A stretch of 64,000 bases of DNA from assembly GCA_016788185.1 (NCBI GenBank), contig JAEUTF010000128.1:16500-80499 (forward strand), in the 5' to 3' direction. Origin of the DNA: Bacteroidia bacterium. Lineage in GTDB: Bacteria > Bacteroidota > Bacteroidia > AKYH767-A > OLB10. Of the stretch, positions 40,338-63,951 are shown piece after piece (the first letter of the stretch is position 1; every line of letters begins with the position of its first letter). The notes under the pieces were generated by a model that had not been told where the DNA came from, searched no databases, and saw only the letters and a program-made list of their open reading frames with translations. The translations under genes were made by a program, and so were the position numbers.

Positions 40338-40367
40338 TCAACAGGCCTGTTTGGCCAATAAAATTTT

Positions 40368-40399
40368 AAAGCTGTCTTCGTTGAGGACAGCTTTTTTTT
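40368..40399 (+). terminator. Intrinsic terminator after rplS
   Basis: Stem aaagctgtc / gacagcttt followed by a T8 run. Confidence 0.85.
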
Positions 40400-40896
40400 G
40401 CACTGTATGAAAGGCTGTTTTCCTTCGTTTGGAAATTTAAAACTATAGGGAAGATCAGGTGGATGATGCCAAGCGGTTTTACCGGTAACTCTGAAAGGAT
40501 TTTCAGACCATTATAGAAATCATCAAGCTAACAAGGTCGTACTGTTATTGCGAATTCTATTTTCAGGAATTGACATTCAACCCGTTTTTATAGGATTTTA
40601 TTTATATTAAACCGGACAATTCCGGTACCGGCCTCATAATTTTACACAATGCTTGCAAATGCCGGATTTTTTTGCAACATTTCTGAAAGCTAAGTATTGC
40701 TATTTATTGAATTAGTCAACCTGACCTTTAAAGTTCCTTTCATCTAAACTTTTAAAAAGCACCTAAAAAAATTCACGGTAACCGCATATTCTTATTGACC
40801 GGTCACTGATCGTTTCATTCTTTCTGCTTTGATACTTTCTGAAAAAATCTAAAAATCATAACGCATTTTATTGCTTTAAACCTAAACCTGCCCATT

Positions 40897-43800
40897 ATGG
40901 AAAAAACCGCTACCCTATCAAACACGTGGAAAAAATGCACGCTGTCAATAAAACTATGGATGGCTTTCACCTGTATTCTGGTTCATTTTAGCAACGATCT
41001 GCGTGCACAGATTTCAGTGACCGTAACCAATCCGGCCAATACCACACCCAACCTGTCAGCCACGTATCCTTCCCTTTCAAGTGCTCTGAATGCCCTGAAC
41101 GCGGTCACGGCCATGACTGGCCCTGTTACCTTAACGCTCGGCGCCGGCACATCCGAAACGGCTCCTCCCAATGGACTGACCATTGGCAGTGCCACGCTCA
41201 ATCCTGTTTTGAGTCCGGTAAACACCGTGACCCTCATCAAGGCCGGTGGCATCGTTACCTTAAATGCGGGAATTGGGGTGGCCACACCCTCCAGTGCGGT
41301 ACCCGATGGCATCCTTAAAATTGCTGGTGCCGATTACATCACCCTCAACGGACTGACCTTTACGGATGGCAATCTTAGTAACCCGGCCACCATGGAATTC
41401 GGACTGGCACTGTTCAAAGCAAGTCCATCCGATGGCGCCGGCAACAATACCATTCAGAATTGCTCCTTTAATATGCAGCGTGTAAACAACGATGCAGGAA
41501 CTGCTCCAATGGCGGAGGGTTCGGTGGCCATCCTGGTGATCAATGCCGCTCCTGGAGCAGCAACCACTGCGCTTACCCCAACCACAGCAGCCGGAACAAA
41601 TTCAAACAATAGATTTTTTAACAATACCATCATTGGCGGTAATTATGGAATCGTTTTAAGCGGATTTGCAGCCAGCTCACCTTTTACTACCGGAGACCAG
41701 GGCAATGACATAGGAGGAACCGGAACATCCACAGGAAATTTCATTTTCAATTACGGCGGTGGTGGCAGCTTAAATCAGGCAGCAGCCATCCGGGCCAATC
41801 ATCAATGGTCGCTTAATATTTCCTATAACACCATCAACAACAACAATGGGGGAGGAGTGAACCATGGAACAACGCTTCGCGGAATTCATACAGAGACGGG
41901 TAACGGAGCCAGTGCCACCATCAACAACAACTCGGTTACTGTCAATGGAGGTGGAACCACAACAGCTTTGATCGCGATTGACAATGGACTCGGTAACGCC
42001 GGCAGTTCCAATACCATCCAAATAAACAACAACACCATCAGTGCGTGTACCTATTCAACAGCTACCAGCGGAACTTTTACAGGAATTCAAAATACCGCAA
42101 CGGCTGCAACGGTGAATATAAATGGCAATACAGTATCCGGAAATTCGACAGGAGGTACCGGCCTTCACAACATGATTTTAAATACCGCCGTGCTTCCTGT
42201 ACTGAACATCAATTCAAACACCATCAGCAACAACCTGCGTACAGCTTCCTCCGGAACACAAAGGGGGATCAGTTTTGGAAGTCCGAGCGTCGGCACGATC
42301 AATGGCAATACGATTGAATTAATGAGTTTTCCACTTACTGCCACTTCTGTTGCAATCGATGGCATCTATGGTCTATCCAATTCGGTCAACATGACCATTA
42401 ACAACAACATCATCAGAAATCTGTCTATCCCTTCTACAGGAATAATTACCGGAATTCGTGAATTCGGCATCAGTGGGAACAAAATCATTCAAAACAACCA
42501 GGTGTTTAATTTCACCACCGTCTCAGGAGGAACAGGTGGTTCAACGTTTATTGGAATAAACTGCTCGGTAGGCGACATTAATATCAGCAATAACCTTATA
42601 CACAGCCTGAACAGTACGGGAAGTCCGGGTGGTGCGAGTGGAGGCTGCGCGGGAATCCAGATCACCAACAGTACCACCAGCGTCATTTCCAGGAATAAAA
42701 TTTACAATATCTCAAGCGCCAGTGTCACTCCCACCGTGGTAGGTATCATCACCGGAGGAGGTGCCAACACCTCCATATTCAACAACCTGGTGGGCGATTT
42801 GAGAACACCTTCCGCCAACTCTACCCATCCGCTGGCCGGCATCAGCATATCCGGTGGAAGTGTAGCCCATGTTTCCTACAACACCATTTATTTAAACACC
42901 AGTAGTTCCGGACTTAATTTTGGCTCGAGCGGAATATACGCCTCCATCACCCCAACGCTGACGTTGAGAAACAACATTGTCATCAACACGTCTGCATTTT
43001 CCGGTTCGGGTTTAACGGCTGCTTATCGCCGAAGCAGCGGAACCACCGGTGTGATTCCGTCCACCTATTCGCCGGCTTCCGACAATAATATCTTCTTTGC
43101 GGGAATTCACTTTATTTATGTTGAAGGTATAGGACCCTACACCAACGTACAAAATACCATGGCGGGCTACAAAGCATTTATGGTTTCCATCGATCAGGCC
43201 TCGGTAACGGAAAATTGTGTTCCTTCCTTCTTAAGCACTGTGGGTAGTTCAGCCGGTTTCCTGCACTTTTTACCCGGAGCCAGTACCCTGGCGGAAAGTG
43301 CCGCCTTCCCCATCCCGGGGATCACCGATGATTTTGACGGCAATGCGAGAAGTGCCTCTTCCCCGGATATCGGCGCCGATGAATTTTCAGGTTCCAACCC
43401 GTCTTTCGTCGCACTCGACATGCGACCCTTCGGACTACTGACACCTTCTTCATCGTCTTGTTACGGCTCTGCGGAAGTCATCACAGCCCAGTTGAAAAAC
43501 AATGGTACCAACGCCCTGAATTTTGCAGTGAACAATTGCAACGTTTCTGTTACGGTGACGGGACCGGTCAGCACCTCATTCAATGCCACCATCAATACCG
43601 GCACCCTTGCTCCAGGAGCCACCATGAATTTACTCTTGCCGGGAACCCTGAACATGTCCGCTGCAGGCACCTATTCATTCACCATTAATACAACCATGGC
43701 TGGTGATCTGAATCCATCCAATGATAATTTCGGACCGACCACACGTACGGTCAACTCCTCTGTTTCATTACCTCAAATGGTAAATTTCAACGGCTATAAC

Positions 43801-46800
43801 GGCTCAAACCTCAGTACTGTTTTTCCCGGATGGCGCGAAGCAAATACCGCCATTCTTCCGACAGGAACCACCTCCTCCTGGACCAGCAGCACTATAATTC
43901 CTCTTTCTGGCAACACGGCCAGGGTAAACTTGGTTAACAATTCAAAAAATGAATGGCTGGTAGGTCCCAAATTTGTTTGTGGACCGGGTACCTACCTCGG
44001 ATTCAAAATTGCCATCACCGATTTTAATTTTTCCACCCCTGACGCCTCGGGCATGCAGGGTACCGATGATAAGGTGATCGTGAAAATATCAACGGACTGC
44101 GGCAATACCTTTACTGATTTATTTACCTACAATGCGGCCAACACGGCTACCATCAGCAATACACTGGTTCCCCAGTTAATCAACCTGTCCGCCTACAGTG
44201 GCCAGCAGGTTATCATCGCATTCTTTGCAACCGAAGGAGTGGTGAATGACATTCCGGATTATGATTTCCATATTGATGATATCAATATCGGAACCATCTG
44301 TACAGGAACGCCTGTGGCCGGTGCTATTTCAGCATCCGTACCAGGTCCTTTCTGTGGTACCGGCAGTACGGTATTAACTTCCTCCGGAGCTTCTTCTGAT
44401 AACGGTATCGTGTACCAGTGGTACAGTTCTGCGGTGTCCGGTTCGGGCTATACCCCGGTACCCGGGGCGATACTTCCCAATTATACCGCCAGTGGTTTTA
44501 CCTCCTCCGCATTTTTTAAGTTATCGGTCAAATGTATTTCCAGCGGCGACTCCGTACTAAGCAATGAAATAGGCCTTCTGGTACTTCCGAAACCAACGGT
44601 AAGCGTGACTCCGGATTCGGGTGGATACTGTGGCAGCGGCAGCATCGCCCTGGCAGCGTCAGGAGCGGTTTTGTACGCCTGGTCACCTTCCACGGGTCTC
44701 AGTGGCACGACAGGTCCGAATGTAACAGCCAGTCCGGCCAGCAATACGGTTTACACGGTAACCGGTACGGATATAAACGGTTGCACCAACACAGCCACCG
44801 CTTCCGTATATGCTTTCAATATACCGTCGCCCTTGTCCATCGCACCAGCATCCCCCGCTGTTTGTCCTGGTTCTTCCATCCTCTTAAATGCGGTAGGAGG
44901 TACCACCAATGACCTCATTTCCGGGTCGATCACTTTTAATCTGACGAACCCTGCCGGCGATGAAGACAATGGGATTACAGGTACTCCGGGTTTCATATGT
45001 CCGGGCAATAATCAGATAGCTTCCTTTGTTCTTCCCCCTGTTCCGGGAACTTATACCAGTGCCCGTTTGTCCATCAACGGCATCATGCTTCAGGGCAACT
45101 CCTTCGGCTCTGAAATACGGCTTCACCTGAGTGGATCGGGAATTACCGGTACATCGGGATGTTATCAGGGAGCCAGTACAGGGGGAACACCCAACCCCGT
45201 GAATTACCTCACCGGTGTACCCACCCTGAATGATACCACCCTGCTGGCGGCCTTGTTAAACACTGCCGGTGGCACCGTGAACATCCGGTACAGCGAGTCA
45301 TTCAATGACATTATCACCGGACCGGATGCCCTTTTCCCGGCAACCGCCACCTTACAGTACACGTACGCAGCACCACAACCGCTCATCACCTGGAATCCGG
45401 GCAATCTGAGTGGTACTTCACAAACAGTTTCTCCGGCTGTGAGCACGACCTACAGCGCTACGGCCACGTCGATGTTTGGTTGTTCTACCAATGCCAGCAC
45501 GAACGTTATGGTGTATCCACCCATGACGGCATTGGCTGCGGCCGCTAACGCCAGCTGTGCCACCTGTGCCGATGGATCGGTCAGCATCAGTTCCATAAAC
45601 GGAGGTACGCCACCTCACACATTTACCAACCTCAGCGGCCTCCTCCCCGGAAATTACTGCATTCTGGTGACCGACGCGAACGGATGTACCACCACCGCCT
45701 GCGCCACGGTTCAAGGTGCCAATTGCAATCTGCTGGTCAGCACCAGCTTCACCAATGCCTCCTGCAACGGAGCCGCTAACGGCAGCGCCGCCGCCGCCGC
45801 CAGTGGTGGTGTTTTCTCTGGACCGTTTACTTACAGCTGGTCCAATGGTTCTACCGGAGCCAATATCTCGGGCTTATCGGCCGGAACCTATACCGTGGTG
45901 GTGGCTGAGCCTTCCAGTGGTTGCTACGCAGAGAAAAGCGTTCAGATTGCAGAGCCGGAACCCATTGCGGTGAATGCGAGCAGCACCCCCGCCAGTTGCA
46001 CCGGTACGGCCACTGGAAGTATAAACATATCGGTGAGCGGCGGGGCGGTTCCCGAAAACAGTGTTTTTGATTTCAACAGTGGACTTCAGGGCTGGACCAC
46101 AGGAAGCCTGGGGACATCTTGTTCCGGAAATGCCACCGCCAGCTCCGGATGGAGTTCGCAGGCTTTTGGCTTCTCGGGAAGCAGTTTTGGTATTCCCGGC
46201 CCGAACAGCAATGTCCAGAACAGCTACATCGAATCGCCTGTATTGAATCTTCCATCCGTCATTCACCTGAATGCCAGATCGTGGTCAAACAACGAAGGAG
46301 GATACCCCTGTTTTTACGACGTGGAATATGCAGAATATTCTACCGATGGAGGGATCAGCTGGCAGCCTTTCTTCAACATCTACCAGACCAACCTGCACAA
46401 CGGTGACATCGCATCCTGGAACATGCTGAATTACTCGGCAAATATCATCCCCAGCACCAATGGCAAAATACGTTTTCGTTACGACACCGGCGACGGTTGC
46501 TGCGGCAGCACCGTTAACAACCCGGGATGGTTTATTGACGATGTAACCATTGCCAACACGACCACCACGCCGGCCACCTTCACCTTTTTGTGGAGCAATG
46601 GTTCTACGGCACAAAATCTCAGTGGTGTAACGGCCGGAACCTATACACTTACCGTTACCTCTTCAAACGGATGCAGCTACGTCAGTACACATACGGTTGC
46701 CGATCCGGTTCCGCTGGTAGCCGATGCCAGCGGTACGGGTGTAAGTTGTTTTGGTGGCAATGACGGAACCGCCACGGTGAGTGCCAGCGGTGGCAACCTG

Positions 46801-49800
46801 ATGAACTATTCCGTTGGCAGTGTCGCAGGATCTTTGCCGTTTCAGGGTTCAGTTGCAGTGGCACCTGTTCCGATCGGAACCTGTAATTGTCCGCCCGGTT
46901 TTGTGGCTGTTGGTTTCAGTGCCAGAGCCGGGTCCTTTGTGGATCAGATCAACCTGGAATGCCGTGAATTGTTAAGCAACGGAACCTTGGGTGCCACGGT
47001 GGTTTCAACCTGCACCAATGGCACCAGTGGAGGAGGTATTCCATATGGTCCGTATTTATCAGTCGGCAACCAGGCGCTGGTGAAAGCTACCATTCTTGAA
47101 CCCACCAACCCTTGCCCCAATTGCTACCCACGCGGAATGAACGCCGATTCAAAAGCGATATCCGAAATTGCGGCGGGCAGCAGCAACAACTCCGGGCTTA
47201 GCAACATTGGTGGGTTTGTAACTTTCGGAGGCAGCCCCAATACCGTTACTGCACCCGATGGACATGCCATCGTGGGCATGATTACGTATACAACCAGCGG
47301 AGCCGGCTGGTTTCAGGGCGTTCAATTTCTGTATGCGCCTATTATCGCTACAACTCAACCTTCCTCATATACCTGGAGCAATGGTGCGACCACGTCATCC
47401 ATCAGCGGTTTATCACCGGGCAATTATTGCGTTACCATTACCGATGCGAACGGATGCACCGCCAGCGATTGTTACCAGGTTACACAGTCGGCAAGCCCTC
47501 TTTCAGTGATTTGCCACGGCAGTGCTGTTACCTGTAACGGTGCCAATGACGGCATTGCTGCCGTGACGGCGAACGGAGGAAGTACCTACCAGGGTTCTCC
47601 CTACGGTGAACATACCTTCAGTTATACAGGATCCGTTCAGACCTTTACGGTACCACCCGGAGTCACCTCCATCAACATCGAAGCCTTCGGAGCACAGGGT
47701 GCTTCGGGTTCACCAGGCGGTAACGCCAGTGCCGGTGGAGCTGGTGGATTGGGCGCCAAAGTGAAGGGGAGCATGGCTGTTATACCCGGACAGACCTTTA
47801 CGATTCATGTAGGAGGAGCTGCTTCCGGTGCCACCGCTGGTTTCAACGGCGGCGGAACAGGAGGAAATCAACTCGCCGGTGGCGGTGGTGGTGCCTCTGA
47901 TGTTCGTTTCGGCGGCACGACGGCAGCACATCGGATACTCGTAGCCGGTGGCGGTGGCGGCGGTGGCCGTGGTGGCTGTGAACAAACAGTCGCTTTTGGC
48001 GGAGCCGGTGGTGTTGGAGGAGGAGGTAGCGGAGCGAACGGTGCCAATGCCCCTACATCCGGCGGGGTGGCCGGGGGTGGATTTGGCGCGGCCGGACAAA
48101 CCGGCGGAGCGGCCGGTGTGGGCTGTAGCGGCTTCCTGGGTATTCCCGGCCTTTCTGCGACCAATGAAAACGGAGCGAACGGAGGAGATGGCCAATCCTG
48201 TTGCTGCTTTAACGCATTCAGCATCCCTGGTGGCGGCGGCGGCGGCGGCGGATACCTCGGCGGCGGCGGTGGCGGCGGCGGATCTGCCGGTACCGTAAGT
48301 TGCTCCGGAAACGATAAAGGAGGCGGTGGAGGTGGAGCCGGTGGCACCAGTTATCTGGCAGGTATTTTAAGCAATACCCTGACGGCAAACGGCATCCATG
48401 CCGGAAACGGAAAAGTAGTGATCAGTTACGGAGTTCAACCGTATACGTATGCATGGAGCAACGGTGGTACAACGGCCAGCATCAATGGTCTTGCGCCGGG
48501 TACCTATTGTGTAACGGTAACGGATAGTACCGGATGTTCAGAAACCTGCTGCTATACCATTTTTGAACCGGCTCCATTAACGGCCACCATGACGAAAACA
48601 GATCCCGTTTGCAATGGCGATACCAATGGCGTAGCCACGGCGATGGTCACCGGCGGTCTGACTACCGATCTTCAGGTGAATACACCTTTTGCCGGCAGTC
48701 CTCTGTCCTATGGGGCATCCTTCGGTCCTCAGGTTTTCAACCTGACTGCCGATGTGGTGTACCTGGCGGATCAAAGCGCTTCGTACCTGGGTTGTTCACC
48801 CTATACCCCCGGTAACCTGACCGGTAAAATTGCACTGATCGACCGGGGTACCTGTACGTTTGTTACCAAAGTGCTGAATGCACAAAATGCAGGAGCAATC
48901 GGTGTCATCATGGTTCAGAATACCACGGCAGCGCCGGTTGTAATGGGAGGAGCCAATGCAGCAATCACCATCCCTTCCATGATGATCAGCCTTTCAGACG
49001 GAGCATCCTTGAAAGCGGCCCTTACCGGTTTAAATACGGTCAATGTTACTTTAAGTTCTACCGCTTATCAGTATACCTGGTCAAATGGAAGTACAGGAAC
49101 GAACACGATTACCGGATTGGGAGCAACAACCTATAGCGTTACCATCAGCGATGCTTCAGGTTGTACCACTTCCGGGTCAACAACATTGATAGATCCCCCT
49201 GCCTTGCTCGTGAGCACCACTTCATCCGCTGTTACCTGCAATGGCCTGTCCAACGGTACGGCCACTGCCAATGCCAGTGGAGGAAATCCAAACTGTGACT
49301 TAGGTGCTACCGATGTCATCAACAACTTTTTCATTGTAAGCCCGACCATTTCATCAGGTCAGAATTTTGTTGCCTGTAATACCGGAGCCATCACACAGAT
49401 CACCGTAAATGTCAATACCGGAACAACCGGCCAGATCATGCTTTCCATGGCCCCGGGAACCGACACCTCCGTACCAACCTATACACAACTGCTGAATGCG
49501 CCAACCACCGCAGGAGTGTGGGTGATCAACCTGACTACGCCCTTCCCGGTGACCATGGGTAACACCTATTCGTTTTCACTGGGTGGACCCGGAAGTACAG
49601 TACCGGCCAGTTTCATCGGGATTGGCTTCACAGACCCTGGCTTGTCGTATCTCAGCGGAAATGCCATTCAGAATAATGCTCAGGTGTCAACGGCCGACCT
49701 TTACTTTGGAATACATGTGGCCGGCAGTGTGAATTTACCCTACACTTTTGCCTGGAGCAACGGCGCCACCAGCAGCGGTTTCGGTTCAACCATTGGCGGA

Positions 49801-52794
49801 TTGCCTGCAGGAAGCTATATGGTGACCGTTACAGACTATTATGGTTGCTCAGACATCGAAATAATAACGGTGACACAACCGGATCCGGTTAGCGCCACCG
49901 TTGCAACCAGCGGTGTGTTATGTGCTGAAAGCCCGAACGGCACCATCAACTTAACCCCAACAGGCGGGACTGCACCTTACAGCTTTTTGTGGAGCAATGG
50001 TTCTACGCTCGAAGATCAAAGCGGACTCACGGCCGGGACTTACACGGTGATTATTACCGATTTCAGCGGTTGCACCGGGACGGTCACAGCCATGGTAAGC
50101 TGCTCAGACAACATTCCACCAACCCTCATCTATCCACCCAGCATGGCCAATGCCATGTTTGAGAATTTTGAATCCGGAGGCCTTGCCCCGGGATGGACAG
50201 CAGGTGGATTATGGCATGTGACTGCCGCATGTTCAACGGGAACGCCGCCCAACCCCACCAAATGGGCTTATTATGGTATCGACGGTACCTGCACCTTTAA
50301 CAATGGTTCAACCAACAGCGGAGACCTGACTTCCGCCACGGTGGCGATACCAGCCAATGCCGCCAATGCAAAACTGCGGTTCCGGTATGTGTACAATGGG
50401 GAGGGAGGGTTTCCGCCTTCCGGATATGACAATGCATCGGCAAGAATCAGCATCAACAGTGGCCCCTTTGTACAGATTCAAAGTCTGAGCACCTCGGGTT
50501 CGAATGGAACATGGCTGGTCGCAGAAATGGATTTAAGTGGATATGCCGGTAGTACCGTTGCCCTTCAATGGAATTTCAATACCGTGGATGGTATTGCCAA
50601 TAGTTTCCTCGGATTACAGATTGACAGTGTGGTCGTTTCCTATTCGGATGATTGCCCGGCCGATATCGTCACCACCAACCTGCCAGGCGTGTGCGGAAAC
50701 AACGTCGCCTGGATAGCTCCCGTGGCCAGCGATAATTGCGCCGTGGTCATTACCAGCAACAAGAATCCCGGCGACTTCTTCCCGATCGGGACCACGGTGG
50801 TGACCTACACGGCTACCGACGGTTGTGGTAATGTGCGCACCTGCAGCTTCAATGTGATCGTAAATCAGTCCGGGCCTCCGATTCTCACCCTCAGCGGTAC
50901 CGCCAATACAATTTGTGCAGGAAGTAGCAATGGCGGCGTTAACCTTACCGTAACCGGCGGGGCCGCGCCCTACACCTATGCCTGGTCAAACGGGGCGACC
51001 ACCCAGGATTTATCAGGAGTTGGCGCCGGCAACTATACCGTCACCGTGACGGAAGCCAACGGCTGTTCGGCCATTTACAATGCAAGCATCAACGCCATCA
51101 GCCCGAATGTAAACCAACCTGCCGGTCAGGTGGTATGTGAAAATACGGCTACTACGGCCGTTAGCTTCAGCGGATCCATTCCCGGAACAAGCTTCAGCTG
51201 GTCCAACAACGAAACCGGAATCGGTCTTGCGGCCGCCGGCACAGGAAATATTTCATCCTTCATTGCGCAGAATCCGGGGTCCATACCACTCACGGCCACC
51301 ATTACCGTTACGCCTTCAACACCAATCGTTCCCGAACTGCTGTATTATAAATTCAACGGTTCAGGACCAGCGGTGCCCAACCTGGCCAGCAGCCCTCCCG
51401 GAGGTGCGGCCAGCCTGATGGGTGGACTCACACAGGGTGGAAGCGGAATCTGCAACGGAACACTGATCGGAACAGGCATTGCTTCGAATCTGGATTACCT
51501 GAATACTGGCTGGGCTCCCAATCTGCCCGCTGGTAATTCATGGACCATTTCCTTCAAAACCTCCAACATCAACGGACCTGCATCAACCCTGAATTATATA
51601 TTCGGTGATCCCTCGGCCGGATCGCTGCGTTGTTTCACGAACGGAGTGGCAGGAACCGGGAACTGGATTTTACGCGGACCATTCAATGATGTGCTGGTAC
51701 CGGGTGCGGCGAGTATTGCACCGCATACCATCACCTTTGTTTACGATCAGTCCGCGGGAAACATCAAAGCTTATGTGGATGGTATCCTGATCAATACGGT
51801 GATTCAGTCAACCGCCATCAGCCTGGTTGGCAGCGGACCCTTTAAAGTGGGTGGTTACAGCAGTAATGTTGGATTGCCTGCCGGTGGCTTGATGGATGAA
51901 TTCATGTTGTTTAGCCGCGCTCTGAATCCTGCAGAGGTACAAAGCCTGGCTGCCGGTTGTGATGCGCTGAACTGTACAGGCAGCCCAACAAGTTTTACCA
52001 TTACCGTGAATCCTCTGACCAACTATTATACAGATGGCGACGGGGATGGATTTGGAGCCGGGGCAGCCACCTCCGCTTGCACGGCACCTCCCGGTACGGT
52101 AAGTAACAACACAGACTGTAACGATGCCAACTTCGCCGTGAATCCAAATGCGACGGAGGTTTGCAATGGCATTGACGATGATTGCGACGGACTCACGGAC
52201 GAAGGCTGTACCTCGGGAGCAAGCTTTAACCTCACGGCATTGATAGAGGGTTATTACATCGGGGGAGGAAATATGCAATCGGTACTCCTCAATGCAGGAG
52301 TCAGTGCCAATCCTACCCTGTGTGATACCATCGTTGTGCAATTGCGCGATCCGCTCAGTCCCTCCACCGTGGTTGCTTCCGACAAGGTCGTGATGGGTGT
52401 AAACGGACAGGCCACCTTCAGTTTCCCTGCATCGGTGGTGGGCAACAGTTATTACATAGCCGTGCTGCACCGCAATGCCATTCAGACCTGGAGTGCCTTG
52501 CCGGTCACCTTTACCTTGACCACGAGCTATAATTTCACCACTTCACCGGCACAGGCATACGGAGCAAACATGATTGCCGTCTCTCCGGGAATTTATGCTT
52601 TCTACAGCGGTGATCTTTCGCCGCAGGATGAAGTGGTGGATATCCTGGATCAGTCGGTCATGGACAACGATATCTTTAATTTCTTAAGCGGATATGTGGT
52701 TACGGATCTGACAGGAGATGGAATTGTTGATATCATTGACCAGTCGATCATTGATAACAACATCTTTAATTTTATAGGTTCGATTCATCCCTGA
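40897..52794 (+). CDS. Giant (3965 aa) mosaic cell-surface/adhesin-like protein
   Basis: Single uninterrupted ORF with a signal/anchor-like N-terminus. Approximate domain order, read from motifs:
- parallel beta-helix repeats (41.3-43.1 kb; [34 protein letters not shown]...)
- CARDB-like module (43.41-43.74 kb)
- three MAM/choice-of-anchor-J-like modules
- Ig/PKD-like modules
- about 10 SprB-type repeats (45.55-51.09 kb)
- glycine-rich domain
- PA domain ([33 protein letters not shown])
- HYR domain (50650-50868)
- LamG-like domain (51.33-51.96 kb)
- MopE-like motif (52024-52212)
- dockerin-like C-terminus. Confidence 0.9.
   Translation: [3965 protein letters not shown]
45550..51090 (+). repeat. 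Array of SprB-type protein repeats (coding), several of them interrupted by inserted domains
   Basis: Recurring C.G..[ND]G........GG..PY.[YF].WSNG.T.....GL.[AP]G.Y.V.[VI].D..GC units. A 25-nt identical stretch (ctttttgtggagcaatggttctacg) occurs at 46584-46608 and 49983-50007. Confidence 0.8.
47608..48432 (+). other. Glycine-rich domain (Pfam Gly_rich / ALK-LTK GRD-like) within the giant ORF
   Basis: [31 protein letters not shown]...[27 protein letters not shown]...GFNGGGTGG...[13 protein letters not shown]...[16 protein letters not shown]...[20 protein letters not shown]...[10 protein letters not shown]. Confidence 0.7.
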
Positions 52795-52806: not shown

Positions 52807-52840
52807 AAGAAAGCCGGGAGCAAATGTTCCCGGCTTTCTT
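52807..52840 (+). terminator. Candidate intrinsic terminator after the giant ORF
   Basis: 13-bp perfect stem aagaaagccggga / tcccggctttctt with an 8-nt loop. The T tail is weak. Confidence 0.6.
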
Positions 52841-52900: not shown

Positions 52901-53434
52901 ATGGGTGTCCTGAAAAATCATCTGAAGCTTTTATTGACGTGCAGCGCCTTTGCAATTCTTCAAGAGGCTAATGCTCAGTATTTTATGATTTCGCAGATCT
53001 ACCCCTCCAATGCAACAGGTGAAGCGGTCTATTCGATCAGCATCCGCAATTCCGCCAACGACAGCATCATGGTTTTGCATACCCAGGAAGCTTCACTCCC
53101 TCCGTTCATCAACCGCTATAAATGGGAGAATGGGGGAGAGAAGGAAATTAAAGCGACATTGTATTTCGGTAAAAGCAATAACCCCTTTTTACCCGAACGG
53201 TACCGCGCCACGAAAACACTGCCACCCAACGGTGAAATGGAATTGTATTTTACCATGCCTGCGAATTTCAATAGCTACAGAAAGCAACTGATCATTTACT
53301 ACTCCATGCTGGAGGATAAATTTTATTCTGATTTTCATAAACTGGAAACCACCGGTACCAATTCCTCTTTAAAAAAATGCAAGGCCCTGAAGGAAAAACA
53401 TGGGGTGGTACACAACCGGAAAGTGATTTTTTAA
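52901..53434 (+). CDS. Hypothetical secreted protein
   Basis: 177 aa with a signal peptide ending EANAQ and no recognisable domain. Immediately downstream of the giant ORF on the same strand. Confidence 0.6.
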   Translation: MGVLKNHLKLLLTCSAFAILQEANAQYFMISQIYPSNATGEAVYSISIRNSANDSIMVLHTQEASLPPFINRYKWENGGEKEIKATLYFGKSNNPFLPERYRATKTLPPNGEMELYFTMPANFNSYRKQLIIYYSMLEDKFYSDFHKLETTGTNSSLKKCKALKEKHGVVHNRKVIF

Positions 53435-59505: not shown

Positions 59506-62500
59506 TTACTGGCCCAGGAAGCGCTTTACAAACTCGGCTTTTTTCCGGTCGGTACTTAGCATGAATTCATAAGCCGGCGTATCACCCTTGGATTCAGCAA
59601 CCCGCTTTTCAGGTTTCATGTTATTGATGGCATCGTTGAACTTGCTGTCGGACGAAATGGACTGCATGATACCTCTCGAATAATTGAAATACCACCAGGT
59701 GGCGTTATCCGACTCCAGATACAGATTAAAGACTTCACTTCCTCTCTTGCGCTGGATCTCAAAGTAGCCTTTTACTTGCCGGTTGATGCTTTCCTTGCCG
59801 ATGAATCCGATGCCGATGGGCCCGCTCGATCTGTACGCCTGGCTCTCTTTATCCCAGTAGAGTTTTAAATCGCTCAGGAAGATCGTTTGCTGCAATTCCT
59901 GTGGCAGTCGCTTTGGAGCACCGTATAAGCTGTATTCTGAAATCATTTTGTCGGTCTTTTCTATGCCAACAATTTCCTTCATCCCGCGTACCCAGGTAGT
60001 ACGGGTATCATCGCTTGGCTTTAAGGTGGGATTGCCAGTGATCAACTCCGTCATGCTTTTCATGGCATCGTTGTTAAACATGAAATCTAATCCGACTAAA
60101 AGATCAAAAGTGGTGGAGTCGTTGTTGGTGTTGTTGGTGACATTCCCTACCACCATCATTTTAAACTGACCGAAATTGGTGGCCAGATTCATTTTACCCT
60201 CACCGTAAACGGTGCAATTGGCATCATTCAGCTGAACCAGGTTACCCGGTGCATCCGGCGATTTGATTTTATCGGGATTGGTTACTTTATATACCTTGGC
60301 TTTGGGATCGTAGGACAATACACCATTGGCGGTAATCAGGTCAGCGTCCGCACCTCTCTTCTTGGGTGAGAGGAAAGAAGAATAAAAACCAGTGCTGTCG
60401 GAGGAGAGGGATATGGCTACAGCGAGTTTTTCATAATTCTCATTTTTCGGCTCTGTGATGGGAATGTTCACCCCGTTCGGGTCGATATCACTCTTAAAAC
60501 TGAACCAGTTGGCCGGCAGTTTTTCAGCGCACTGATGATTAACCCTCGCAAATCCTTCGAAGTTTAACAGAGGATTGGCCGCCATGATGTTTACGCCTCC
60601 CTTGTACTGGATATTCGTGCTCAGCAGGAAGTTGCTTGAATCGGCAATCACCCCGTTGGCATAGGTCTGAAGCGAGGTGTCGATGGCAATTCTTTGCAAC
60701 TGTATCAAATGCTTCACCTTTGCCTGATCGGTGTAGGCGTATTTTCCGGTGGCCGTGTAGCTCTTTCTGCCCAGTACATTGACCGTAGCATCGCTGATCA
60801 TATGATACCTGGTACTGGTGTTGGCCACTATTTTCGCCTCTTGCAACGGACGCATCACCGCATTTCTTTCGATCACGATGGTGGAACTGTCGTTCGGCTG
60901 GATGGAGGCGTCGGCAACAAGAATCTCTTTTACCTTCCGGGCTTTGATCAGGTAATCGATCAGGCTGTATCGTGCCAGCCCGGCGTTCCAGCGGAGCGAA
61001 TCCTGAAACGGATTGATGGAGACAAAATCGGATCCTTCGATATTGAGCTTCGTATTGTCCTTGTAGTCTTCCCCGAATTCAACTTCCTGCTTGTCGATGA
61101 ACCATTTGAACTGGGCAATGTAGCAGATGTACTGGTTAAGCGGGAAACTCACGAAGGAGCCCTTCCCGTTTGAAATAAAATCACCGAAACGTTTCACCAG
61201 GTCGATGCGTGATTTCACGTTTCGCGTCTGGATGGCCAGTACGCTGGCATCGTCTGACTTGAGTTTAAAGTCAGACGTATCAGCACCATAGGCATCCTGC
61301 TTGAACCAGAAATCTTTGGAATACAACTCAGATTCCAAAAAATAGGAATCTCCGTTACCGCCCAGTCCTTTGGCAGCCAGCACCAGGTTGCCATCCACAC
61401 TAACGGTTTTATCGTAAACCTCCAGGTTGCTGCTTTGTTTAAACACATACATTTTGTCTTCGCGGGGACGCCAGTTGATATAGGTATCGGAACCATTGGC
61501 CTGTGGAAATCCTACACCGGCAATCGTTTCTTTCCGCAGCTCCCACTGCGCCTTGCCGAGATTCGTGGAGTCCGGGAAAAAGAGAATATCCTTCGACTCC
61601 GACAAGGAACTGAGGTATTCTACTTTTCCATCGCCTTTCAGTCCCGCATAGCTCAGGTCGATATGGTTGAAATACCTGCCTTTTCCTCCATACATGGCAT
61701 ATCCCTCAGGCGGACTCTCCCGTTCAAATCCAAAGGAATAATCAGGCCGGATAATGGCGGTTTCGGCAATGGTGGGGAAGATCCCGGCCGACTCGAAATT
61801 CCCCTGAAACTTCAGACCTCCTGCCGAAAAATTATCCAGTGAATCAATCGTAAAGGGATCCATCTTGAAATAGAACTTGTCACGGGAGTACACTCCGTTA
61901 TAAATGGAGGGATGGTCATAGTAAACAAAGGCTTCCTTGTCGCTGACAAAAACAGGGTAGGGGGGATAACTCTTCCTGCTTGATTTGTTGCTGAGGCTGT
62001 CAATAAAAATTTTCCCGGTAACATTCTGAAGGGTACTCTTGAGGGGGATGAGTTTGGGATTTCCATTCTCATCAAATTCCGTGTCGGAAACCACCTTCAA
62101 CCGGATGGAATCGACATTGGCCAGGTCGATTCTGAACTGATCGTACAGAAACTTGAACTTTTTGCCATAGAAATCACTGCGCCCGGCATGCACCCTCCCG
62201 TTGAACTCAAAGTCACGGTTTTTCAGCAGACGCATTTCCTGGTTGACCGGAGCAATCCATACTTGCTGTGAATCACTGAGTAAAATCCGTCCTACTCCCT
62301 GCAGATCCATTTCAAAATTCATCAGGTTGAGCTTGGCGTTGGGGATCGCCGAAATCACCGACTCGATCTCAATTTTATCGTAATCGGTTTTATTGCTTCG
62401 GGCAGCCAGGTAGTAATACAATTTGTCGTTGATGGTGGCCACATCCTCTTCAAAATCATAACTGACAAAACCCTTGTTGGCCAGAAAAATAATCAGTGAG

Positions 62501-63951
62501 CGCGCCTGCTGATCACTGACCCGCATGTACTTCGCCAGTTCCACAGGATAAATGTAACGGCTGGTTTTTTCCGCATACTGCTTCAAGGTAAACAATGGAC
62601 TGACATCTGAAATGCCCTGTATTTTCTGAAAGCGTTCATCGGTATACAGGTTGTTCGATTCCAGCACCATTTTACTTTCTCCCTGTCCGCTGAGCATTTT
62701 TAACTCCATCAAAGGATTGTCAATTTTCCAGTAAATGGCATCTACATACATGTCCATCTGGTGGAAAGAATTGAAAAAGGGCATGGTGATACCCGAATTG
62801 GATGAACGGATAAGACTCAGCTCACGATCCTTGCTGATGTATTTCATTTCAAGGGAAGGATGGTACAGGGAATCCTTATCAAAATAGCAAACGAAGGAGG
62901 CATTGTCGGAACTGATCCGGTCGGGTTTTACCACGAAACTCCTCGATGAAACCACCAGAAATGCTTTCTTGTCGCGTTTAAAAGTGAGGGTGGCCTTTTG
63001 TTCTTTGGTACCGGCGCCTATCATTTTATTACCCTGCTGGGCAAAGCCCCCCAGGTAATCCGCATCCTTAACAATCTCCTTGATGCCCAGCTTTAAATCG
63101 TAGGACATGAAGCGAGGATAGCTGGCATTCTCGGGATTCACATTGGCCAGGATCTTATCCACCACTTTCCCCCTGAGCGGTTCTTTGAAGAGCTGTTTGT
63201 TGTAAAATACGGCGCTGTCGGTACCCCATTCCGAACTGGTCAGGTCAACCGTGGTGGTGAGAAGATCGGCATACACCACCGCCGGATTCAGGCCGGCCCG
63301 GGTCCAGTACAATTTACCCCCGGTACCAACAAAGGTTTTACTGAGTGGATAATAATACCCTTTTATACCGCTGATGATGCTGCTGTCATTCTTGGCATAA
63401 CAACTGAGATCCATCGATGGAAAACTGATCCGCGGCACTGTATCAAATTCAAAGAGGTAATTACCGGTACTGGCAACCCATTTTGTTGAACCTGACTCGT
63501 ACAAAACGTTAGCCACAAAGAGTCCGGCCACATTCTCGATGTAATCGCTGTAACGCTTTGATGATCCCGTAAGCATCTTTTCCAAACTGTTGTGCCAGTT
63601 CAAAAACACCTGGTTATCGCGCCCTGAACGGATAAACGCCATCAGGGCGGCCACATAATTGCTGAAGTCTGGATAGGGCTTCATCCGTTTCTTCAGCATG
63701 TTATTGGCGGTAGTGATCACGGTCCTTTGCTGCTCACCGTTAAACCGTGGCTCTTTCAACCAAACCTCCTCAAAGGCGTCCATCACTTTTTCCGTCTCTT
63801 TCTTGTTGGTGAGCTCCATATAGCCTTTCAACTCCTTGAAAAATACGGCCGGGTCATTGCTGAATGATTTTGGGGCCTGCCCCTGACACTCAGCGAGTGT
63901 GAGAAACAGGAATAGAGCCAACAGGATATTTTTAATACATGGCATGCACAT
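59506..63951 (-). CDS. Large (1481 aa) exported hypothetical protein
   Basis: Uninterrupted ORF with a signal peptide (LALFLFLTLAECQGQ). Predicted beta-rich, with no motif I can assign. Confidence 0.8.
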   Translation of the reverse strand: MCMPCIKNILLALFLFLTLAECQGQAPKSFSNDPAVFFKELKGYMELTNKKETEKVMDAFEEVWLKEPRFNGEQQRTVITTANNMLKKRMKPYPDFSNYVAALMAFIRSGRDNQVFLNWHNSLEKMLTGSSKRYSDYIENVAGLFVANVLYESGSTKWVASTGNYLFEFDTVPRISFPSMDLSCYAKNDSSIISGIKGYYYPLSKTFVGTGGKLYWTRAGLNPAVVYADLLTTTVDLTSSEWGTDSAVFYNKQLFKEPLRGKVVDKILANVNPENASYPRFMSYDLKLGIKEIVKDADYLGGFAQQGNKMIGAGTKEQKATLTFKRDKKAFLVVSSRSFVVKPDRISSDNASFVCYFDKDSLYHPSLEMKYISKDRELSLIRSSNSGITMPFFNSFHQMDMYVDAIYWKIDNPLMELKMLSGQGESKMVLESNNLYTDERFQKIQGISDVSPLFTLKQYAEKTSRYIYPVELAKYMRVSDQQARSLIIFLANKGFVSYDFEEDVATINDKLYYYLAARSNKTDYDKIEIESVISAIPNAKLNLMNFEMDLQGVGRILLSDSQQVWIAPVNQEMRLLKNRDFEFNGRVHAGRSDFYGKKFKFLYDQFRIDLANVDSIRLKVVSDTEFDENGNPKLIPLKSTLQNVTGKIFIDSLSNKSSRKSYPPYPVFVSDKEAFVYYDHPSIYNGVYSRDKFYFKMDPFTIDSLDNFSAGGLKFQGNFESAGIFPTIAETAIIRPDYSFGFERESPPEGYAMYGGKGRYFNHIDLSYAGLKGDGKVEYLSSLSESKDILFFPDSTNLGKAQWELRKETIAGVGFPQANGSDTYINWRPREDKMYVFKQSSNLEVYDKTVSVDGNLVLAAKGLGGNGDSYFLESELYSKDFWFKQDAYGADTSDFKLKSDDASVLAIQTRNVKSRIDLVKRFGDFISNGKGSFVSFPLNQYICYIAQFKWFIDKQEVEFGEDYKDNTKLNIEGSDFVSINPFQDSLRWNAGLARYSLIDYLIKARKVKEILVADASIQPNDSSTIVIERNAVMRPLQEAKIVANTSTRYHMISDATVNVLGRKSYTATGKYAYTDQAKVKHLIQLQRIAIDTSLQTYANGVIADSSNFLLSTNIQYKGGVNIMAANPLLNFEGFARVNHQCAEKLPANWFSFKSDIDPNGVNIPITEPKNENYEKLAVAISLSSDSTGFYSSFLSPKKRGADADLITANGVLSYDPKAKVYKVTNPDKIKSPDAPGNLVQLNDANCTVYGEGKMNLATNFGQFKMMVVGNVTNNTNNDSTTFDLLVGLDFMFNNDAMKSMTELITGNPTLKPSDDTRTTWVRGMKEIVGIEKTDKMISEYSLYGAPKRLPQELQQTIFLSDLKLYWDKESQAYRSSGPIGIGFIGKESINRQVKGYFEIQRKRGSEVFNLYLESDNATWWYFNYSRGIMQSISSDSKFNDAINNMKPEKRVAESKGDTPAYEFMLSTDRKKAEFVKRFLGQ

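What the first reader, a model, noticed from the sequence alone, without database searches (positions are those of the whole stretch)
40897..52794. 11.9-kb single ORF with an unusually heterogeneous set of binding modules
One reading frame occupies almost a fifth of the window. Read by motif, it combines:
- a long parallel beta-helix
- a CARDB-like module
- three MAM/choice-of-anchor-J-like modules (about 43.77-44.29, 46.05-46.56 and 50.14-50.64 kb)
- PKD/Ig-like modules and SprB-type repeats
- a glycine-rich domain, a PA domain, an HYR domain and a LamG-like domain
- a MopE-like motif and a dockerin-like tail

It is followed on the same strand by a small secreted ORF (52901-53434) that may be a partner. 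No enzyme active site was recognised. The protein looks like a multi-ligand adhesin or an S-layer-like fibre. This is the most accessory-looking locus in the window.
Basis: partly seen in the sequence, partly recalled or inferred. Interest (0 to 1): 0.6.

Follow-up and report, generated by a model that had tools for sequence, protein, structure and literature searches.

The report
Giant surface protein with dockerin tail
The 11.9-kb reading frame is a real, strain-specific gene for a giant secreted surface protein of an uncultured Bacteroidia bacterium; it carries many different binding-type modules on a repeat stalk and ends in a cellulosome-style "plug" (X-module plus dockerin) instead of the usual type IX secretion signal.

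Summary
The ORF (40897-52794, 3965 aa) is intact. It has no near-identical DNA repeats that could cause assembly collapse, and it has a signal peptide and its own terminator.

Modules:
- Above curated cut-offs: SprB repeats, PA, HYR, Laminin_G_3 and the MopE motif.
- Below cut-off: beta-helix, the three MAM/choice-of-anchor-J modules and the glycine-rich domain.
- No tool support: CARDB and PKD.

1. Five consecutive SprB repeats and one Ig-like repeat are each split at the same loop by a different inserted domain, so the stalk acts as a display scaffold.
2. The last 190 aa are not a type A, B or C T9SS domain. They fold (pLDDT 97) like the X-module plus type II dockerin of clostridial scaffoldins. 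The X domain heads an undescribed, strictly C-terminal family of more than 5000 clusters, and in relatives such tails co-occur with, and often lie beside, T9SS-anchored cohesin-like genes.
3. The 177-aa downstream ORF is not a partner. In 15 same-genus genomes it directly follows rplS, so the giant gene is an insertion specific to this genome.

The most likely function is a surface fibre with many binding-type modules, docked by its tail to a cohesin-like receptor. This genome has a candidate receptor but lacks the usual partner family.

The parts
40338..40896 (+). 559-nt leader between the rplS terminator (hairpin 40368-40394) and the start codon
   Evidence: Terminator-like hairpin and weak promoter-like sites. 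No ORF in the interval.
40897..41007 (+). Sec-type signal peptide (aa 1-37, KK...hydrophobic...LRA|Q)
   Evidence: Read from the translation. This is an inference; no predictor was run.
41008..43401 (+). N-terminal beta-helix-like head (aa 38-835), the part best conserved in relatives
   Evidence: Pfam Beta_helix 22.6 bits, below the 25.9 cut-off. Seventeen rung-like motifs. 52-57% identity to two giants of G028 and 55% over 786 aa to P0038.
43402..44289 (+). CARDB-like Ig module (aa 836-965) plus MAM/choice-of-anchor-J-like module 1 (aa 977-1131)
   Evidence: NF038128 26.5 bits, below the 30 cut-off. No CARDB hit. 45-50% identity to repeated cassettes of P0039.
44314..45528 (+). Three Ig-like repeats. 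The third (aa 1310-1544) is split after 'GG' by a 159-aa insert (aa 1336-1494)
   Evidence: The spliced halves align to the neighbouring repeat with score 123, against 42 +/- 7 for shuffles. The insert is 55% identical to P0038 aa 1415-1557.
45544..45963 (+). Two uninterrupted SprB-type repeats (aa 1550-1689)
   Evidence: Pfam SprB and own SprB HMM.
45979..49887 (+). Five consecutive SprB repeats (R2-R6), each split after the 'GG' of its first half by a different domain. Inserts: MAM-like jelly roll (aa 1717-1891), unknown (1967-2159), glycine-rich GRD-like (2229-2512), PA (2588-2721), unknown (2797-2945)
   Evidence: Half-model HMM matches. With the inserts removed, each repeat matches the full SprB HMM at 64-88 bits, against 81-86 bits for the intact repeats. 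PA 72 bits; GRD and Reelin-B below cut-off.
49909..51096 (+). SprB repeat R7, MAM/choice-of-anchor-J-like module 3 (aa 3087-3247), HYR (aa 3253-3322), SprB repeat R8
51517..52203 (+). Laminin_G_3 (aa 3541-3682) and the MopE-type Cys/Asp motif (aa 3740-3769)
   Evidence: Pfam 43.2 and 43.9 bits, both above cut-off.
52222..52542 (+). X domain (aa 3776-3882): a beta-sandwich from an undescribed, strictly C-terminal family
   Evidence: No Pfam, NCBIfam or PDB-sequence hit. 5264 clusters match at E<=1e-3. Of the best 150, 146 carry it at the extreme C-terminus or 71-100 aa before it. Model pLDDT 97.
52543..52791 (+). Dockerin-like tail (aa 3883-3965): two Ca-loop-plus-helix segments packed on the X domain
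   Evidence: Foldseek: the ten best PDB matches are all X-module plus type II dockerin chains (E 7e-6 to 6e-4, prob 1.0). Pfam Dockerin_1 is below cut-off.
52807..52840 (.). GC-rich 13-bp-stem hairpin directly after the stop codon; probable terminator of the giant gene
   Evidence: One search scored it on the minus strand. The palindrome is visible on both strands.

Best explanation
The ORF encodes a giant cell-surface fibre of a T9SS-bearing, uncultured Bacteroidia bacterium. The closest relatives are activated-sludge MAGs.

Shown:
- It is one intact, monocistronic gene, inserted between rplS and a genus-conserved small gene in this genome only.
- It has an N-terminal signal peptide.
- Its order is: a conserved beta-helix-like head, then Ig-like and SprB repeats, then LamG, a MopE motif and a 190-aa C-terminal unit.
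- Six of the repeats are split at the same loop by unrelated domains (jelly-roll/MAM-like, PA, glycine-rich and three unknown). The repeat stalk therefore works as a rack that holds out a row of different modules.
- The C-terminal unit is not a type A, B or C T9SS domain. Its confident model superposes on X-module plus type II dockerin units.

Inferred:
- The protein is exported by Sec and ends up on the cell surface.
- Its XDoc tail plugs non-covalently, with calcium, into a cohesin-like socket on a protein that carries a type A T9SS domain and is thereby fixed to the outer membrane.
- The inserted modules and the head bind several ligands, probably glycans or other cells.

How the protein crosses the outer membrane is not known. 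The usual socket family of relatives (A4) is absent from this assembly. The only candidate here is the 267-aa cohesin-like protein with a type A CTD on contig C249.
For: Gene reality and insertion.

Domain map.

Split repeats:
- establish the splits in this protein.
- Such splits are rare elsewhere: about 14 among roughly 4800 repeats of 118 other giants.

No T9SS sorting domain, in a genome rich in T9SS:
- The genome has 148 type A and 21 type B domains and encodes SprA.
- The type C model NF033708 hits none of the X loci.

XDoc fold:
- pLDDT 97.4, pTM 0.92.
- The top ten PDB matches are all XDoc chains from cohesin complexes.

X stands where sorting domains stand:
- An M36 peptidase scores above the cut-off of 'T9SS-dependent M36' (NF038113, 919.6 bits) over model positions 3-775 of 869, that is, all but its sorting-domain end; its own C-terminus is X.
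- Choice-of-anchor B and Z proteins, an S8 peptidase and others also end in X.

Socket link:
- The two closest relatives of this protein (G028) also end in XDoc, and each is followed at once by an A4-family gene.
- 9-11 of 80 X loci show the same neighbour, and the four complete ones end in a type A CTD.
- In 61 relatives all 24 A4-positive genomes have the tail, and none of the 25 tail-less genomes has A4 (Fisher 2e-8, by genus 1e-5).
- The best Foldseek matches of the A4 model are cohesins and CBM3.

Own-genome cohesin candidate:
- Pfam Cohesin hits 10 of 19 family members (best E 7.7e-6) and type A CTD hits 18 of 19.
Against: - No A4-family gene exists in this 97%-complete assembly.
- The C249 cohesin sits beside a different, small dockerin protein, so it may serve that protein instead.
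- The A4 model is weak (pLDDT 58.6; TM 0.38-0.5). Cohesin and CBM3 folds cannot be told apart at that quality. hhalign of A4 against the C249 family gives only 12% probability.
- Pfam Dockerin_1 is below cut-off for the tail, and the first Ca loop is not canonical (sequence).
- More than half of X-family proteins have X alone with no dockerin, so X must have a role of its own that docking does not explain.
- No route across the outer membrane is shown.
- No ligand of any module is known.
- Expression is untested.
Confidence: 0.55

Rival explanations
1. The X domain, alone or with its dockerin extension, is itself a fourth class of T9SS C-terminal secretion signal. The giant protein would then be a direct T9SS cargo, and the dockerin part would be an accessory.
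For: - X is strictly C-terminal in 146 of 150 top family members.
- It is found almost only in Bacteroidota, plus some Ignavibacteria.
- It replaces the type A domain in a 'T9SS-dependent' M36 peptidase and ends choice-of-anchor proteins.
- On C20, tandem S8 paralogues carry XDoc in one copy and a type A CTD in the other.
- The ChiA-type 'type C' CTD shows that further CTD classes exist (PMC10202324).
Against: - In the XDoc form, 82 residues follow X. Known CTDs need a free C-terminal end (established knowledge of type A CTDs; not tested here).
- No T9SS CTD structure appears among the 50 best fold matches.
- No conserved PorP/SprF-like or shuttle gene lies near X genes.
Confidence: 0.2
2. The protein is released into the medium or matrix as a free multi-lectin or biofilm-matrix protein. 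The dockerin-like tail would only bind calcium or mediate self-association, with no dedicated receptor.
For: - No partner gene lies next to it, and there is no A4 family in this genome.
- 12 of 36 tail-bearing genomes lack A4.
Against: - The XDoc architecture is conserved at high confidence.
- XDoc co-occurs with, and lies next to, A4 genes in relatives, including the closest relatives of this very protein.
Confidence: 0.15
3. The long frame is an assembly artefact, or a chimera of several genes joined in a metagenome bin.
For: - The genome is a 282-contig MAG with 3.1% contamination.
- The exact protein is on record only once.
- No full-length homologue exists.
Against: - No near-identical repeats exist to collapse.
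- GC3 matches that of the flanking genes.
- Both flanks keep the genus synteny.
- The N-terminal ~1550 aa are collinear with P0038.
- The beta-helix head paired with an XDoc end recurs in G028.
- An 11.9-kb open frame does not arise by chance.
Confidence: 0.03
4. One reading: a two-gene system in which the 177-aa secreted ORF is the partner of the giant protein.
For: Same strand, 106 nt downstream.
Against: - The small ORF follows rplS directly in 15 of 15 same-genus genomes and in two public MAGs that have no giant gene.
- A hairpin separates the two genes.
- The small ORF is conserved at 52-69% identity, while the giant has no orthologue.
Confidence: 0.02

Closest known systems
X-module plus type II dockerin (XDoc) of clostridial scaffoldins, e.g. 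C. thermocellum CipA and A. cellulolyticus ScaA bound to type II cohesins (PDB 2b59, 4u3s, 5k39, 5m0y)
   Same: - Same order and packing: an Ig-like X module followed by a duplicated Ca-loop/helix dockerin at the extreme C-terminus of a very large modular protein.
- Fold match at probability 1.0, TM 0.57-0.66.
- In cellulosomes this unit anchors the whole assembly to cell-surface cohesins.
   Different: - Only 12-15% sequence identity, with Pfam Dockerin_1 below cut-off.
- The host is a Gram-negative, T9SS-bearing Bacteroidia bacterium.
- No glycoside hydrolases or cellulosome context.
- The putative sockets are fixed by type A T9SS domains, not SLH or sortase.
- Binding is untested.
SprB and other giant SprB-repeat adhesins of Bacteroidota (Flavobacterium johnsoniae SprB, RemA; type B CTD cargo)
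   Same: - SprB repeats form the stalk.
- Giant size and a Sec signal peptide.
- The genome has a full T9SS.
   Different: - No type B (or A or C) CTD.
- No PorP/SprF-like neighbour.
- Only about 10 SprB repeats, half of them split by inserted domains.
- Beta-helix head.
T9SS CTD classes A (TIGR04183), B (TIGR04131) and C (NF033708, ChiA type; PMC10202324)
   Same: - X occupies the same terminal position on the same kinds of secreted proteins: proteases, nucleases, adhesins.
- It has a similar size (about 105 aa) and is a beta-sandwich.
   Different: - No match to any of the three models.
- X is often followed by an 82-aa dockerin.
- A secretion role is untested.
PA domain as a nested insert in M36 and S8 peptidases
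   Same: The PA domain here is also an insert into a host domain. It is 40% identical to the PA of the genome's own M36 peptidase and scores 105-120 bits on the PA region of the M36 models.
   Different: The host domain is a non-catalytic SprB repeat, and five further unrelated domains are inserted in the same way.

Membership tests
T9SS cargo with a recognised sorting domain | Type A CTD (TIGR04183 / PF18962) at the C-terminus | tested here: not met
   No hit in aa 3466-3965 at E<=1. The genome-wide scan finds 148 type A domains, none at the end of this ORF.
T9SS cargo with a recognised sorting domain | Type B CTD (TIGR04131 / PF13585) | tested here: not met
   21 in the genome, none in this ORF; no hit.
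T9SS cargo with a recognised sorting domain | Type C (ChiA-type) CTD, NF033708 | tested here: not met
   No hit over cut-off in the genome. The weak hits coincide with type A loci, and none lies at the ten X loci.
T9SS cargo with a recognised sorting domain | Secretion depends on T9SS genes | not testable with these tools
   Needs genetics in a cultured relative. SprA is present in the genome.
SprB-type gliding adhesin | Tandem SprB repeats (PF13573) | tested here: met
   110 bits over the whole protein; about 10 repeats by own HMM.
SprB-type gliding adhesin | Type B CTD with an adjacent PorP/SprF-like gene | tested here: not met
   No type B CTD. The neighbours are rplS and a 177-aa ORF with no Pfam family.
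X-module-dockerin (type II XDoc) | Ig-like X module packed directly N-terminal to a dockerin, at the C-terminus | tested here: met
   AF2 pLDDT 97.4, pTM 0.92. The ten best PDB matches are XDoc chains aligned over 188-204 columns.
X-module-dockerin (type II XDoc) | Dockerin sequence signature (PF00404; two Ca-binding loops DxDxDG...D) | tested here: inconclusive
   Dockerin_1 E 3.2 here, and 0.02-0.07 in the two paralogues. Four relatives have PF00404 on record. The second loop, DLTGDGIVDIID, is canonical; the first, GDLSPQDEVVDILD, is not (sequence).
X-module-dockerin (type II XDoc) | A cognate cohesin in the same organism | tested here: inconclusive
   One cohesin-like protein with a type A CTD (C249). 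Pfam Cohesin gives 22.9-23.9 bits against a 24.1 cut-off, and 10 of 19 family members hit. The A4 socket family of relatives is absent.
X-module-dockerin (type II XDoc) | Calcium-dependent, high-affinity binding to the cohesin | not testable with these tools
   Needs purified modules.
Right-handed parallel beta-helix (PF13229) | Score over the Pfam cut-off | tested here: inconclusive
ALK/LTK glycine-rich domain (PF12810) | Score over the Pfam cut-off | tested here: inconclusive
   15.8 bits against 24.5; no PDB sequence match.
choice-of-anchor J / MAM-like | NF038128 over cut-off | tested here: inconclusive
   26.5 and 18.4 bits against 30. InhA-like_MAM 19.2 and Reelin_subrepeat-B 17.4, both below cut-off.
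CARDB (PF07705) and PKD (PF00801/PF18911) | Any Pfam match | tested here: not met
   No hit at E<=1 in overlapping 500-aa segments or at E<=0.05 in the isolated region.
PA, HYR, Laminin_G_3, MopE motif | Pfam score over cut-off | tested here: met
   72.3, 56.3, 43.2 and 43.9 bits.

The most novel reading that the evidence does not exclude
The 190-aa tail is one example of a large, undescribed surface-attachment system of T9SS-bearing Bacteroidota.

In this reading, secreted proteins that lack any T9SS signal carry an X or X-dockerin end. They are held on the cell by plugging into cohesin-fold sockets on proteins that the T9SS anchors, and they may even be carried out by them. The proteins concerned include proteases, nucleases and giants like this one.

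Within such giants, SprB repeats would serve as a general rack into whose loop any binding domain can be inserted.
Probability: 0.35. Interest if true: 0.8.

Novelty: new variant of a known kind. Interest (0 to 1): 0.55.

Why it matters
Bacteroidota are thought to place proteins on their surface as lipoproteins or through T9SS sorting domains.

Here a giant protein, and nine further secreted proteins of the same genome, end in a domain that no curated library knows. The domain is strictly C-terminal in thousands of protein clusters. In its longer form it has the fold of the cellulosome anchoring unit.

If the plug-and-socket reading holds, it would do three things:
- explain how signal-less surface proteins and 'orphan' dockerins of Bacteroidota are displayed;
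- give a second, non-covalent layer of surface assembly on top of the T9SS;
- offer a natural display scaffold (split SprB repeats) for engineering.

For this locus alone, the result is more modest. It is a strain-specific accessory adhesin-like gene, of the kind that shapes attachment and flocculation in activated-sludge communities.

Tried and rejected
- **Full-length homologue search.** None found. The best local coverage was 26%, and the hits were driven by SprB repeats.
- **PDB sequence searches.** The X domain, the three unknown or glycine-rich inserts, the N-terminal head and the A4 family gave nothing significant.
- **Conserved shuttle or PorP-like neighbour of X genes.** Clustering of 516 flanking ORFs from 80 loci gave only the A4 family and a family of other large surface proteins.
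- **A4 family in the own genome.** Absent by tblastn, by two HMMs with filters off, and by the genome search.
- **Homology between A4 and the C249 cohesin family.** hhalign probability 12%, so not shown.
- **Type C CTD.** Rejected.
- **Foreign origin by composition.** Rejected. GC3 is like the neighbours, and the higher GC lies in codon positions 1 and 2, reflecting Gly/Ala/Thr-rich protein.
- **Mapping the insertion junction.** The intergenic DNA is too diverged from relatives.
- **Recent intragenomic duplication of the inserted modules.** Rejected. Only the PA, HYR, head and CARDB-like parts have paralogues.
- **Structure predictions.** The beta-helix head and a split repeat were therefore not modelled.
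Full report
**1. The observation**

The frame 40897-52794 (+) is open for 3965 codons. The protein is rich in Gly, Thr, Ser, Ala and Asn and poor in charged residues. It starts with a Sec-type signal peptide (aa 1-37, read).

DNA repeats inside the gene are short and diverged, at most 79% identical over 29-95 nt. The only simple tract is (GGC)n at 48232-48281. Nothing in the sequence would make an assembler collapse or join copies.

GC3 is like that of the flanking genes. The higher GC of the middle part sits in codon positions 1 and 2, so it reflects amino-acid content.

**2. Domain content**

- Over curated cut-offs: SprB repeats, PA, HYR, Laminin_G_3 and the MopE motif.
- Under cut-off but repeatedly pointing the same way: Beta_helix (22.6 against 25.9 bits), choice-of-anchor J (26.5 and 18.4 against 30), Reelin-B/InhA-MAM, and the ALK/LTK glycine-rich domain (15.8 against 24.5).
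- No support: CARDB and PKD. The corresponding stretches are Ig-like by eye only.
- No catalytic family was found.

**3. Architecture**

The SprB repeat has an N-half (C.G..G......GG) and a C-half (Y.Y.WSNG...G.Y.V.V.D..GC).

- In three repeats the halves are 3-5 aa apart. In five consecutive repeats they are 137-287 aa apart.
- An HMM built from 300 canonical repeats of other giants matches these five only as half-models.
- When the intervening residues are removed in a script, each matches the whole model at 64-88 bits. The intact repeats score 81-86 bits.
- The inserts are a MAM-like jelly roll, an unknown 193-aa domain, the glycine-rich domain, the PA domain and an unknown 149-aa domain.
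- A sixth insert (aa 1336-1494) splits an Ig-like repeat at the equivalent 'GG' loop. The spliced halves score 123 against the neighbouring repeat, compared with 42 +/- 7 for shuffles.

Split repeats do occur elsewhere but are rare. There are about 14 clear cases among roughly 4800 repeat matches in 118 other SprB giants, with at most four in one protein.

Most inserted modules have no paralogue in this genome. The PA insert is 40% identical to the PA of the genome's M36 peptidase.

The protein is a mosaic:
- its first ~1550 aa are collinear with P0038 (55% identity);
- its LamG region matches P0070 (58%);
- the central rack is unique.

**4. The C-terminal end**

The genome is rich in T9SS components. 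It has 148 type A and 21 type B sorting domains and encodes SprA. This protein nevertheless has none of the three known CTD classes (type C as defined in PMC10202324).

Instead, its last 190 aa recur in the genome. Ten ORFs end in the first ~105 aa (X), and three of them, including this one, add an ~85-aa tail.

X has no Pfam, NCBIfam or PDB-sequence match. A profile of X finds 5264 clusters (50% identity level) at E<=1e-3. Among the best 150:
- 79 have X at the very end;
- 67 have X 71-100 aa (mostly 81-82) before the end;
- 4 are otherwise.

Named carriers are almost all Bacteroidota MAGs, with some Ignavibacteria, and are annotated 'hypothetical'.

In this genome X ends typical secreted cargo:
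- an S8 peptidase;
- an M36 peptidase that passes the 'T9SS-dependent M36' equivalog over all but its sorting-domain part;
- a reprolysin-like peptidase;
- an EEP nuclease;
- choice-of-anchor B and Z proteins.

X therefore stands where sorting or anchoring domains stand.

**5. Fold of the end**

With 37 homologues the 190 aa fold as one unit (pLDDT 97.4, pTM 0.92). The ten best PDB matches are all X-module plus type II dockerin chains from cohesin complexes of C. thermocellum and A. cellulolyticus (E 7e-6 to 6e-4, probability 1.0, about 190-200 aligned columns). Everything after that is a generic transthyretin-like sandwich at E>0.01.

The tail has two loop-helix segments. The second has a canonical Ca loop (sequence).

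**6. A socket?**

*In relatives.* The two proteins closest to this one are tandem giants of G028, 52-57% identical in the head.
- Both also end in XDoc.
- Each is followed at once by a gene of a family I call A4: signal peptide, a ~180-aa beta domain, and variable repeats.
- The same neighbour follows 9-11 of 80 X loci, and the four complete copies end in a type A CTD.

*Co-occurrence.* Across 61 relatives the tail is present in 36 genomes and A4 in 24. All 24 lie within the 36, and none of the 25 tail-less genomes has A4. Fisher's test gives 2e-8, and at genus level 7 of 9 against 0 of 23 gives 1e-5. Relatedness inflates these figures.
- At least 20 of 51 A4 matches lie within about 1 kb of a tail match.
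- In the genus the usual order is large XDoc gene, then a ~125-140-aa dockerin-only ORF, then A4.

*Fold of A4.* The A4 model is weak (pLDDT 58.6). Its best matches are a R. flavefaciens cohesin, CBM3 modules and type II cohesins, including the partner chain of the best XDoc match. This is suggestive only.

*In this genome.* A4 is absent. What it does have is a 267-aa ORF on C249 with a signal peptide, a cohesin-like domain and a type A CTD.
- Pfam Cohesin scores just under cut-off here, hits 10 of 19 family members (best E 7.7e-6), and type A CTD hits 18 of 19.
- The ORF lies directly after a 199-aa dockerin-tailed ORF.
- It is the only candidate receptor here, and it may belong to that small neighbour instead.

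**7. Context**

Upstream lie LptF/G, a GT4 glycosyltransferase and rplS with its terminator. Downstream lie the 177-aa ORF, then FloA, NfeD and an M48 peptidase on the other strand.

- The 177-aa ORF is found in 15 of 19 same-genus genomes and in none of 11 other genera.
- In all 15 with visible context it lies 110-270 nt after rplS. The same holds in two public MAGs.

The giant gene with its 559-nt leader and its own hairpin (52807-52840) is therefore an insertion in this lineage, and the small ORF is not its partner. No mobile-element gene accompanies it.

**8. Reading**

The best-supported picture is a Sec-exported giant surface fibre. A conserved head and six nested modules are held out on an Ig/SprB stalk. 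The protein is attached by an XDoc plug rather than by a T9SS sorting domain.

- Shown: gene integrity, the insertion, the module map, the split repeats, the absence of known CTDs, the XDoc fold, and the genomic link of such tails to A4 genes.
- Inferred: surface location, docking to a cohesin-like socket, and ligand binding by the modules.
- Unknown: passage through the outer membrane.

The main rival is that X is itself a fourth CTD class. That would also explain the many X-only proteins.

**9. Comparison and novelty**

Giant SprB-repeat proteins and non-cellulosomal dockerins in Bacteroidota are known kinds. I could not find a described case of either of the following:
- the use of SprB repeats as hosts for nested domains;
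- an XDoc end linked to T9SS-anchored cohesin-fold genes.

Only ten papers in the library hold cohesin, dockerin and T9SS together, and none is on this subject.

Earlier notes of this scan reached the same XDoc/cohesin reading in other genomes. They are not independent evidence, but they show that the pattern is common. This window is a clear example of the plug and a poor one of the socket.

Noticed in passing
G000 contig C249:666-2227 (locus L011 542-2103): A gene pair lies in tandem. The first is a 199-aa secreted protein with an Ig-like module and a C-terminal dockerin-like tail. The second, directly after it, is a 267-aa protein with a cohesin-like domain and a type A T9SS CTD. The cohesin family is conserved in 13 of 20 same-genus genomes, often with a second copy inside a ~1080-aa ORF nearby.
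   Followed up: partly
G000 contig C81:9214-13164 (L094): An M36 fungalysin-type peptidase scores above the cut-off of the NCBIfam equivalog 'T9SS-dependent M36 metallopeptidase', but it ends in the X domain instead of a type A CTD.
   Followed up: partly
G000 contig C20:3718-12445: Two tandem paralogous subtilase-type proteins share similar N-termini. One ends in X-dockerin and the other in a type A T9SS CTD.
   Followed up: no
Same-genus genomes, e.g. G001:C22:42934-44288, G007:C1:447427-448800, G012:C2:780960-782336: A recurrent three-gene cassette: a large XDoc-ended protein, a ~125-140-aa ORF that is little more than a dockerin tail, and an A4 (cohesin/CBM3-like) protein. G000 lacks the cassette.
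   Followed up: partly
G052:C54:19427-20671, G058:C37:24887-26119, G060:C33:3554-4780: Single ~415-430-aa frames hold both an A4 domain and a dockerin-like tail. They could act as adaptor 'scaffoldin-like' proteins.
   Followed up: no
window 52901-53434: The 177-aa secreted ORF has no Pfam or NCBIfam family. It is restricted to this genus among 32 genera sampled, and it always lies just after rplS.
   Followed up: partly
window 48232-48281: An in-frame (GGC)n tract (16.7 copies, 78% matches) inside the glycine-rich insert. Slippage here would change the poly-Gly length without breaking the frame.
   Followed up: no
window 59506-63951 (-): A 1481-aa ORF with no Pfam family at E<=0.001: another large uncharacterised protein in the window.
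   Followed up: no
G000 contigs C153:18251-21544 and C261:50-1423: The SprA translocon gene is split over two contig ends, which shows how fragmented this assembly is around long genes.
   Followed up: no
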